NCBI GenBank assembly: GCA_963752155.1 | Contig: CAVVXH010000005.1 | Location: 96,001-160,000 of the forward strand | DNA: 64,000 nt | From: an uncultured Parachlamydiaceae bacterium | Lineage (GTDB): Bacteria; Chlamydiota; Chlamydiia; Chlamydiales; Parachlamydiaceae | Reading direction: 5' to 3' | Part shown: positions 1 to 803 of the stretch, piece by piece | How the letters are laid out: every line of letters starts with the position of its first letter | Numbering within the stretch: position 1 is the first letter of the stretch | Made by a program: the position numbers and the translations under genes | Notes under the pieces: generated by a model | Databases searched by the model: none | The model's input: only the letters and a program-made list of their open reading frames with translations | What the model was told of the DNA's origin: nothing

Positions 1-803
1 ATAGCCCCTAAACCACCAGGTGTTAACAATCGATCGATGAACCAATTTTTCATTTGATCAATCGCTTGATTTCTAATGTTGCTGTGGTGGGCTACGCTAT
101 CGTAAAGGCGTAAACCCACATCAACTTTTTTTAATAGATTCCCTAAGAACTTTTGATTGTTTCTTGGCAGATGTTTTTTCCCAGTAAAGAGCTGATCTAA
201 TCGGATGTGGGTTAGTATGCGAGGTTTTGTACTATAAATGATTGAGAGCGGTGCAACAATTGTTCGAGTCCAAGCCGAAATTTCATAGAAGTTGAAAGTA
301 AACCATTTAGGAAAGAAAATGAGTTCAGGAATAATAGCAGGCACCTCATCCCATGTGCAAAGACCAAACATGCACATATAGATTTTTGAATAAGTATTTA
401 AAGCTTCCATTCCACCCAATGAACAAATTGTGTCCCTTGCTTTAATCATGTGCGGTTCATTTTCATCATTGTCAGCTAGGCGTAAGGCAAAATAAGCTTT
501 GACAGAGTTATTGACTTCGCTAGGTCCTCCATAGTAAAGTGGCCAACCGCCATCTTGATTTTGTTGCGAGCAAATATAGTTAACAAGTTTGCTTTGTTTT
601 TCTTTATCGACACGCTCCATAAAGTGCATATACATGATATAGTCAGATTCGAGGGCAGAGTCTCCGATCAATTCACCCACCCAATATCCTTCGTCGGTAT
701 GTTTAGAAAGGAAATCTTTTTGCGATTTTCTAATTGCTGTTTCTACAGCATTTTGCAGGATTTGGATATCGGTAAAATTAAGCTGGTGATTTGAGATCGG
801 CAT
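1..803 (-). CDS. shc: Squalene-hopene cyclase (N-terminal ~267 aa; continues beyond window start)
   Basis: Not in ORF track. Manual translation from ATG at 803 (GAGG RBS upstream): MPISNHQ...EGYWVGELIGDSALESDYIMYMHF...QQNQDGGWPLYYGGPSEVNNSVKAYFALRL...EPHMIKARDTICSLGG...NTYSKIYMCMFG...WDEVPAIIPELIFFPKWFTFNFYEISAWTRTIVAPL...GGLGAI. These are QW repeats and other hallmark SHC N-domain motifs; the frame is open to the edge. Confidence 0.93.
   Translation of the reverse strand, partial: MPISNHQLNFTDIQILQNAVETAIRKSQKDFLSKHTDEGYWVGELIGDSALESDYIMYMHFMERVDKEKQSKLVNYICSQQNQDGGWPLYYGGPSEVNNSVKAYFALRLADNDENEPHMIKARDTICSLGGMEALNTYSKIYMCMFGLCTWDEVPAIIPELIFFPKWFTFNFYEISAWTRTIVAPLSIIYSTKPRILTHIRLDQLFTGKKHLPRNNQKFLGNLLKKVDVGLRLYDSVAHHSNIRNQAIDQMKNWFIDRLLTPGGLGA

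What the first reader, a model, noticed from the sequence alone, without database searches (positions are those of the whole stretch)
1..803. Hidden squalene-hopene cyclase missed by the ORF track
The track shows only an antisense 79-aa ORF here. The minus strand has an uninterrupted 267-codon frame with an RBS, QW motifs and SHC-specific segments (VKAYFAL, EISAWTR, GGLGAI). It converts an ordinary mevalonate operon into a cyclic-triterpenoid pathway.
Basis: partly seen in the sequence, partly recalled or inferred. Interest (0 to 1): 0.85.

Follow-up and report, generated by a model that had tools for sequence, protein, structure and literature searches.

The report
Chlamydia with patchwork hopanoid pathway
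This bacterium, likely an environmental chlamydia that lives inside other cells, carries an intact gene of the squalene-hopene cyclase family close to genes predicted to make its substrate, so it likely builds its own simple hopanoid lipids (bacterial stand-ins for sterols), and the gene looked hidden only because it runs off the edge of the window.

Summary
The reading frame is real: ATG at 803, 267 codons to the window edge, then on to an intact 636-aa protein. It is a squalene-hopene cyclase (TIGR01507 660 bits, cut-off 431; DVDD motif; 2.6e-143 to the Alicyclobacillus enzyme). It is not hidden; it runs off the window. It is not in the mevalonate operon: 8.7 kb, eight genes and an IS607 element lie between. 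The pathway inference still holds: sqs heads the mvk-hmgR-pmk-mvd operon, ispA-idi lie 3.4 kb past shc, all within 22 kb. The host is likely an environmental chlamydia; 0 of 72 family relatives have the cyclase. The best-named relatives differ by part (Legionella for HMGR, Myxococcota for Sqs, Planctomycetota/Acidobacteria for SHC). No hpnH was found, so C30 hopanoids are predicted. HMG-CoA synthase, thiolase and ispG are missing from an 80%-complete assembly, so the precursor route is open. The scan found sqs+shc before in another chlamydial genus (e1-9338212); a tree test rejects one clade (p=0.0014), so this is likely a second acquisition. No lipid has been measured. Known enzyme, unusual host.

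The parts
1..803 (-). 5' part (codons 1-267) of shc, squalene-hopene cyclase, 636 aa; the gene continues outside the window to G000:C5:94893 (L001:16893-18803)
   Evidence: TIGR01507 660.3 bits, cut-off 431.1; SQHop_cyclase_N and _C; 1gsz E 2.6e-143
812..818 (-). Shine-Dalgarno-like AAGAGGT, GAGG 9 nt before the ATG
   Evidence: read from sequence; function inferred
555..794 (+). 79-aa antisense shadow ORF, not considered a gene
   Evidence: lies wholly opposite the shc frame
983..1903 (+). DevB/HlyD-type membrane fusion protein, divergent from shc; part of a rearranged DevBCA-type exporter native to the family
   Evidence: 49-61% identical to copies in devC-devA-devB(-omf) clusters of relatives that lack shc
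1900..3414 (+). protein with two cNMP-binding domains and a CAAX-protease-like membrane domain; two paralogs elsewhere in the genome
3439..4593 (-). DevC/FtsX-type ABC permease of the same exporter
5626..7678 (-). IS607-family element (serine transposase 7064-7678 and TnpB-like 5626-7080) between shc and the mevalonate operon
   Evidence: NF033518 216 bits, cut-off 110; TnpB-related weak
9486..10484 (-). mvaD, diphosphomevalonate decarboxylase
   Evidence: TIGR01240 264 bits, cut-off 171
10486..11370 (-). likely phosphomevalonate kinase (GHMP-like); assigned by position and by homologs in the same slot
   Evidence: only a weak GHMP hit, E 8e-5; 48-51% to the gene beside hmgR in G115 and G367
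11371..12687 (-). class II HMG-CoA reductase, Legionella-like
   Evidence: TIGR00532 313.7 bits, cut-off 260; 61-64% to G115/G367, 55-57% to named Legionella proteins
12699..13610 (-). likely mevalonate kinase
   Evidence: TIGR00549 128 bits, below cut-off 163; 48% to G115/G367
13607..14647 (-). likely one-step squalene synthase (Sqs), first gene of the operon, overlapping mvk by 4 bases; DTIEDD motif
   Evidence: TIGR01559 133.6 bits (below cut-off 286.8) against HpnD 60.6 and HpnC 42.6; ten best PDB hits are squalene synthases; only PF00494 gene in the assembly
14803..15792 (+). Rieske oxygenase with KshA_C domain (steroid-oxygenase-like), divergent from sqs; link to the pathway not shown
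   Evidence: 2 of 72 family relatives have a match

Best explanation
The window edge cuts an intact 636-residue squalene-hopene cyclase gene that lies within 22 kb of genes predicted to make squalene, in what is likely an environmental chlamydia, and the enzyme likely folds squalene into C30 hopanoids (diploptene and diplopterol) that would stiffen the bacterium's own membranes. Steps: HMG-CoA or mevalonate -> IPP by HmgR, Mvk, Pmk, MvaD (genes shown, Pmk and Mvk by weaker evidence; flux inferred); IPP/DMAPP -> FPP by Idi and IspA (genes shown); 2 FPP -> squalene by one-step Sqs (inferred from family and motif); squalene protonated by D383 of DVDD and cyclised without oxygen (motif and residues shown; chemistry from established knowledge of SHC). 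No HpnH, HpnN or squalene epoxidase was found, so no C35 side chain and no sterol route are predicted. The pathway looks assembled from separate gains and has been in the genome long enough to match its base composition (inferred). The source of HMG-CoA is unresolved.
For: Family scores above cut-off for SHC, IspA, Idi, MvaD, HmgR. 18 of 28 compared positions equal the Alicyclobacillus enzyme, including D374/D376/D377, W169, W312, F365, W489, Y495, F601, F605, Y609, Y612; 8 of the 10 differences are the state of 117-119 of 119 homologs. shc and sqs are each single copy and lie 12.8 kb apart in a 3.13-Mb assembly. ispA sits after ugd in both congeners but beside idi near shc in G000. All 5 SHC-bearing genomes among 400 scored in the phylum also have an Sqs-like gene. 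GC3 of shc 0.36 against 0.33 +/- 0.06 for 1,481 ORFs; codon usage among the most typical. All 8 radical SAM proteins found in G000 are assigned to other families; HpnH 0 of 1 in G000 and 0 of 4 in the other SHC-bearing genomes. An SHC without modifying genes gives mainly diplopterol in Schizosaccharomyces japonicus (PMC8364164, passages).
Against: No lipid, transcript or enzyme data. shc is not co-transcribed with the operon (opposite-strand genes and an IS607 element between). Sqs and Mvk score below their family cut-offs and Pmk has no family call. No HMG-CoA synthase or thiolase in the assembly. Sqs also occurs without SHC in 3 other genomes of the phylum sample (G228, G236, G275), so squalene need not be made for cyclisation. 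The assembly is 80% complete and lacks housekeeping genes, so hpnH could lie in the missing part. Two active-site-near residues are minority states (Y138 in 19 of 119, W437 in 17 of 119) and could shift the products. No close SHC relative exists (best 51%), so selection on the gene could not be measured.
Confidence: 0.68

Rival explanations
1. The cyclase is active but not fed by this operon: the mevalonate genes serve general isoprenoid supply in place of the MEP pathway, and the cyclase uses squalene taken from the host.
For: Related mevalonate clusters in G115 and G367 have no sqs or shc in the 20 kb fetched and no SHC genome-wide; G115 and G369 lack both dxs and ispG, so MVA-for-MEP exchange happens in this family without hopanoids. 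Waddlia has the same exchange (PMC2878342, one passage).
Against: sqs overlaps mvk by 4 bases at the head of the operon, and every SHC-bearing genome found in the phylum also has Sqs.
Confidence: 0.1
2. The cyclase makes another triterpene skeleton, or its product is further oxidised by the neighbouring Rieske enzyme, so the end product is not plain diploptene/diplopterol.
For: Y138 and W437 are minority states; the branch is long (0.86-1.03); a KshA/cholesterol-7-desaturase-like Rieske gene is divergent from sqs.
Against: The same residues occur in the closest homologs labelled squalene-hopene cyclase; all ring-shaping aromatics checked are conserved. The Rieske gene has matches in 2 family genomes without SHC, so it may act on host sterols instead.
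Confidence: 0.12
3. shc and sqs are unused passengers of a mobile region and are on their way to loss.
For: IS607 element and a scrambled exporter in the region; 0 of 72 family genomes, including 2 congeners, have SHC.
Against: Both genes are full length with intact motifs although their GC-rich relatives are only about 50% identical and the base composition has fully matched the host; an 84%-identical, full-length Sqs exists in another dataset (P0122).
Confidence: 0.06
4. The locus is a mis-joined or contaminant piece of the metagenome assembly.
For: Single genome, 4% contamination estimate, frameshifts in 5 of 71 sampled orthologs; no reads could be laid.
Against: shc is interleaved with devA, devB, devC that are 43-63% identical to family copies, lies mid-contig on a 197-kb contig with ispA 54-56% identical to the congeners', and matches host codon usage.
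Confidence: 0.04

Closest known systems
Squalene-hopene cyclase (TIGR01507; Alicyclobacillus acidocaldarius SHC, PDB 1gsz/2sqc/3sqc)
   Same: Two SQHop domains, full length, DXDD, five QW motifs, 18 of 28 compared positions identical.
   Different: E45D, E93K, R127N, Q262Y, Y420F, C435A, F437H, H451R as in nearly all close homologs; Y138 and W437 are rarer. Nearest relatives with a name are Planctomycetota, Polarisedimenticolia and Acidobacteria proteins at 46-51%. No hpn genes beside it.
sqs + shc pair of the second chlamydial lineage (family code f15, genomes G049, G070, G164, G292; earlier finding e1-9338212; a Chlamydiae-labelled SHC of this type stands in the supplementary alignment of PMC12414744)
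   Same: SHC above cut-off, one-step Sqs, no HpnH match.
   Different: SHC only 33-36% identical to ours and in another clade (AU p=0.0014); its genes sit apart among housekeeping genes; no HMG-CoA reductase in 0 of 4. Ours is tied to a mevalonate operon.
Mevalonate operons of Waddlia chondrophila (PMC2878342) and of Legionella/Coxiella (PMC9803151), and of family relatives G115 and G367
   Same: Lower-pathway genes with class II HMG-CoA reductase; gene order mvk-hmgR-pmk as in G115.
   Different: sqs stands where G115 has hmgS; idi has moved next to ispA; most MEP genes are kept (dxs, dxr, ispD, ispE, ispH).
Stand-alone SHC of Schizosaccharomyces japonicus (PMC8364164)
   Same: Horizontally gained SHC without modifying genes, giving C30 hopanoids as sterol surrogates; a working analogy.
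   Different: Eukaryote with its own full mevalonate and squalene route and with measured lipids; here nothing is measured.

Membership tests
Squalene-hopene cyclase (TIGR01507) | Whole-protein score above the curated cut-off | tested here: met
   660.3 bits against 431.1, residues 19-631
Squalene-hopene cyclase (TIGR01507) | DXDD protonation motif | tested here: met
   YPDVDDT, D381/D383/D384 align with D374/D376/D377 of 1gsz
Squalene-hopene cyclase (TIGR01507) | Both SQHop_cyclase_N and _C domains and repeated QW motifs | tested here: met
   327 and 442 bits; QxxxGxW at 81, 414, 481, 529, 588
Squalene-hopene cyclase (TIGR01507) | Cation-stabilising aromatic residues (list recalled; numbering read from the alignment) | tested here: met
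   W169, W312, F365, W489, Y495, F601, F605, Y609, Y612 conserved; Y420 is F as in 119 of 119 homologs
Squalene-hopene cyclase (TIGR01507) | Converts squalene to hopene/hopanol | not testable with these tools
   needs expression and GC-MS
Oxidosqualene cyclase | DCTAE motif and family score | tested here: not met
   DVDDT instead; TIGR03463 194.9 bits against 851; no squalene epoxidase match in G000 (0 of 3 genomes of the genus)
Squalene-tetrahymanol cyclase (TIGR04277) | Family score | tested here: not met
   189.2 bits against 500
Bacterial tetrahymanol route (SHC + Ths) | ths gene | not tested
   no search was run for it
C35 bacteriohopanepolyol (hpn) pathway | HpnH radical SAM enzyme | tested here: not met
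   0 matches in G000; all 8 radical SAM proteins assigned to HemW, MiaB, BioB, MtaB, RimO, RlmN (2), LipA; assembly 80% complete
C35 bacteriohopanepolyol (hpn) pathway | HpnN transporter | tested here: not met
   best 17 bits against 752
One-step squalene synthase (Sqs) | DTxxD motif (PMC7306690 passage) and closer to Sqs than to HpnC/HpnD/CrtB/CrtM | tested here: met
   IVDTIEDD; 133.6 bits against 60.6 (HpnD) and 42.6 (HpnC); full-length PDB hits are squalene synthases, CrtM only short stretches
One-step squalene synthase (Sqs) | TIGR01559 cut-off | tested here: not met
   133.6 against 286.75; lowers membership of that equivalog, not the working likeness
Complete mevalonate pathway | Thiolase and HMG-CoA synthase | tested here: inconclusive
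   not found by family search or by tblastn with 3 chlamydial HMGS and 1 thiolase, but the assembly lacks other core genes
Chlamydiota (host lineage) | Nucleotide translocases and cysteine-rich outer-membrane protein | tested here: inconclusive
   6 TLC matches, best 626 bits, 0 of 14 controls; Chlam_OMP6 only weak, E 2.4e-4, below cut-off; congeners have the long IspG described for Chlamydiae (PMC10663253 passage). No rRNA or marker tree was made; the lineage is inferred

The most novel reading that the evidence does not exclude
An intracellular chlamydia has built a host-fed triterpenoid pathway from three donors: it has lost both the top of the mevalonate route (thiolase, HMG-CoA synthase) and IspG of the MEP route, imports mevalonate or HMG-CoA from its host, makes hopanoids without oxygen, oxidises them with the Rieske enzyme beside sqs to an undescribed lipid, and exports them through the DevBCA-type pump wrapped around shc.
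Probability: 0.08. Interest if true: 0.85.

Novelty: new member of a known kind. Interest (0 to 1): 0.5.

Why it matters
[quoted passage not shown] Genes for a sterol surrogate, gained at least twice in the phylum, suggest that some lineages make their own membrane stiffener, for example in sterol-poor or low-oxygen hosts or in the free infectious stage (inference). It adds an unexpected possible source of C30 hopanoids and gives a compact test case for how a pathway is put together from separate transfers. The enzyme itself is ordinary, and the claim is directly testable by expressing two genes.

Tried and rejected
Scan of genome contigs with the single Sqs protein: 28 pattern matches, 1 weak locus (E 4e-4), no use. 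Names for the closest SHC and Sqs relatives could not be obtained (the cluster look-up could not be made), so donors rest on the few named rows. Idea that the radical SAM gene near sqs in the f15 genomes is HpnH: rejected, it is HemW. Idea that ispG was deleted at a conserved site: not supported; lplA precedes ispG in one congener only and in 0 of 16 other family genomes. Idea that devB-cNMP is an invertible segment: no convincing inverted repeats at its ends. Idea that the exporter is hopanoid-specific: same cluster in relatives without SHC. Leucine route to HMG-CoA: an acyl-CoA dehydrogenase and a carboxyltransferase beta subunit exist on C2, but a scan with recalled motifs found no second biotin carboxylase or suitable hydratase; left as a lead. 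Promoter scan: 22 sites against 23.9 expected, no signal. The careful 37-row tree did not finish; quick trees were used. No structure prediction was run.

Full report
Observation. On the minus strand an ATG at 803 opens a frame that runs 267 codons to the window edge, with AAGAGGT at 818-812. The ORF tool lists it once open ends are allowed, together with the 79-aa antisense ORF at 555-794. In the genome (window = G000:C5:96001-160000) the frame continues to a stop at C5:94893 and gives 636 residues. The same protein is already a called gene in the protein collection. The gene is therefore real but not hidden.

Identity. TIGR01507 scores 660.3 bits (cut-off 431.1); the oxidosqualene cyclase and tetrahymanol synthase models score 194.9 (851) and 189.2 (500). 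Both SQHop domains are full length. The best solved structure is the Alicyclobacillus SHC, E 2.6e-143 over residues 27-632; lanosterol synthase gives 2.8e-41. The motif is YPDVDDT. Of 28 positions compared (choice and roles recalled; numbering read from the alignment), 18 equal the Alicyclobacillus residue; 8 of the 10 differences are the state of 117-119 of the 119 listed homologs; Y138 (19 of 119) and W437 (17 of 119) are minority states.

Neighbourhood. shc is the first of four minus-strand genes outside the window: shc, devA-like ATPase, outer-membrane factor, GH130-like protein; ispA and type 1 idi follow on the plus strand, 3.4 kb past the shc stop. Upstream lie devB and a cNMP/CAAX gene on the plus strand, then devC, a 256-aa unknown, an IS607 element (two genes), a 206-aa gene and a TIGR04255 gene. 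Only then, 8.7 kb from the shc start, comes a tight operon sqs-mvk-hmgR-pmk-mvaD (gaps of -4, 11, 0 and 1 bases), with a Rieske/KshA_C gene divergent from sqs. So shc is not in the operon, but all genes from HMG-CoA to hopene lie within 22 kb. IspA, Idi, MvaD and HmgR pass their cut-offs; Mvk and Sqs do not, and Pmk is assigned by position. Sqs has the DTxxD motif given for Sqs in PMC7306690 (passages), and its ten best PDB hits are squalene synthases. The dev genes are native: devC-devA-devB(-omf) clusters at 43-63% identity occur in relatives without SHC. In both congeners ispA follows ugd; in G000 ugd is followed by another gene and the only IspA sits beside idi, which suggests gathering of terpenoid genes (inference).

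Host. Six nucleotide-translocase matches, a weak Chlam_OMP6 match and the long IspG of congeners point to an environmental chlamydia; earlier notes on this genome say the same. I made no marker tree, so this is inferred.

Distribution. SHC: 5 of 400 scored genomes of a phylum sample (1 more not scored), namely G000 and 4 of 4 genomes of family f15; 0 of 72 other genomes of G000's family. All five have an Sqs-like gene; 3 further genomes have strong Sqs-like matches without SHC and 6 have only weak, partial matches, of which the three inspected are phytoene synthases in carotenoid clusters. The f15 cyclases are 33-36% identical to ours; ours groups with proteins whose few names are Planctomycetota and Polarisedimenticolia (quick tree of 37 rows: 32 of the 119 listed homologs plus five chlamydial rows; long branch warned). 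On 17 rows the AU test rejects one chlamydial clade, p=0.0014. Two gains are likely; donors are not fixed. HMG-CoA reductase family matches occur in 22 of 401 genomes; close relatives of ours occur in 2 of 72 family genomes, G115 and G367, and named hits are Legionella and Gammaproteobacteria at 55-58%. Named Sqs hits are mostly Myxococcota, Bradymonas and Persicimonas at 39-45%; one unnamed protein is 84% identical. All 15 genes tested match the genome in GC3 (z from -1.25 to 0.58) and codon usage.

What is missing. HpnH: none in G000 or in the four f15 genomes; the 8 radical SAM proteins of G000 are housekeeping enzymes. No HpnN or squalene epoxidase. No thiolase or HMG-CoA synthase; sqs stands where G115 has hmgS. 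G000 keeps dxs, dxr, ispD, ispE and ispH (ispF not identified) but not ispG, which 68 of 72 relatives have; the only two genomes over 90% complete that lack it, G115 and G369, carry mevalonate operons and also lack dxs, while G367 has both routes. Against reading too much into this: the assembly is 80% complete. Of 181 ORFs sampled from the complete relative G055, 71 had strong orthologs (5 of them frameshifted in G000), 53 weak and 57 none; of 17 of these 110 that I scanned, 11 were named, among them riboflavin and diaminopimelate genes, NrdR and the secretion ATPase SctN. The absences may be gaps.

Mechanism. Most likely IPP from the lower mevalonate genes is converted by Idi and IspA to FPP, by Sqs to squalene and by SHC to diploptene and diplopterol for the cell's own membranes. 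Genes and motifs are shown; flux, products and role are inferred. A stand-alone SHC gives mainly diplopterol in S. japonicus (PMC8364164, passages). Confidence 0.68. Rivals: host squalene (0.10), other or oxidised product (0.12), unused passengers (0.06), assembly artefact (0.04).

Literature. Searches: 'squalene-hopene cyclase'+'chlamydia' (9 papers, 7 listed), 'hopanoid'+'chlamydiae' (29, 25 listed), 'environmental chlamydiae'+'hopanoids' (0), 'Chlamydiota'+'squalene' (13, 11 listed), and mevalonate searches. No listed title or abstract start concerns hopanoid synthesis by chlamydiae; most listed papers were not opened. PMC12414744 (passages, section 6, one supplementary file searched) names Chlamydiae only for the 'SHC-like' clade of unknown function, but its supplementary alignment holds one Chlamydiae-labelled SHC of the f15 type. 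PMC7306690, PMC9907078 (passages) have no 'chlamyd' in the main text; PMC9666466 (passages) has sterol reductases but no squalene or hopanoid terms. PMC10070321 (passages) says no chlamydia has been shown to produce sterols. PMC2878342 (one passage) reports the mevalonate operon of Waddlia; PMC9803151 (passages) that of Coxiella and Legionella. PMC3505017, PMC10663253 and bioRxiv 10.64898/2026.04.11.717937 (passages) added little. Supplements of the other papers, and chlamydial gene-content studies outside the library, were not seen and may list this gene.

Verdict. Observation confirmed; interpretation partly supported. The enzyme is a new member of a known family. The point of interest is the host: a likely second, independent gain of hopanoid genes in chlamydiae, here tied to a Legionella-like mevalonate operon. 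The scan noted the first case earlier (e1-9338212). Interest 0.5.

Noticed in passing
L001:12095-13532 (G000:C5:90095-91532, just outside the window): ispA-idi pair, 3.4 kb past the shc stop; ispA has left its place after ugd that both congeners keep.
   Followed up: yes
window 14803-15792: Rieske oxygenase of the KshA/cholesterol 7-desaturase type, divergent from sqs; 33% homolog in G095. May act on host sterols or on hopanoids.
   Followed up: partly
window 15868-16222: Two nested palindromic repeat units (arms of 72-75 nt, 85-96% complementary); similar 80-95 nt palindromes are dispersed over many contigs and shared with congener G401.
   Followed up: no
window 5626-7678: IS607 element with serine transposase and a divergent TnpB-like protein that matches only weakly.
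   Followed up: no
window 4671-9232: TIGR04255 gene, a 206-aa HTH-like gene and a 256-aa unknown, split by the IS607 element; looks like a three-gene sporadic module.
   Followed up: no
L040:7921-14110 (G115), L041:5100-13966 (G367), L042:8228-14025 (G369), L023-L037: At least three unrelated types of mevalonate operon occur in the phylum; G115 and G369 lack dxs and ispG, G367 keeps both routes: repeated MEP-to-MVA exchange.
   Followed up: partly
L015-L019: HMG-CoA-reductase-family genes standing alone, without other mevalonate genes within 1.5 kb, in five genomes; function unclear.
   Followed up: no
L139:6857-10567 (G000:C2): Acyl-CoA dehydrogenase, carboxyltransferase beta subunit and a 107-aa protein resembling the AtuA C-terminus (resemblance recalled): a partial acyclic-terpene or leucine degradation module.
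   Followed up: partly
G000:C10:232134-234733; L139:4050-6014; G000:C9:16805-18270: clpB, mnmG and one nucleotide translocase are frameshifted; 5 of 71 sampled orthologs are split, so the assembly likely carries indel errors.
   Followed up: partly
L064, L065, L069: Carotenoid clusters (crtI-crtB-crtY-like, labels by eye) in three genomes of the same family.
   Followed up: no
L057:935-2460 (G228): idi-sqs pair in a genome with no SHC match: squalene without a known cyclase.
   Followed up: no
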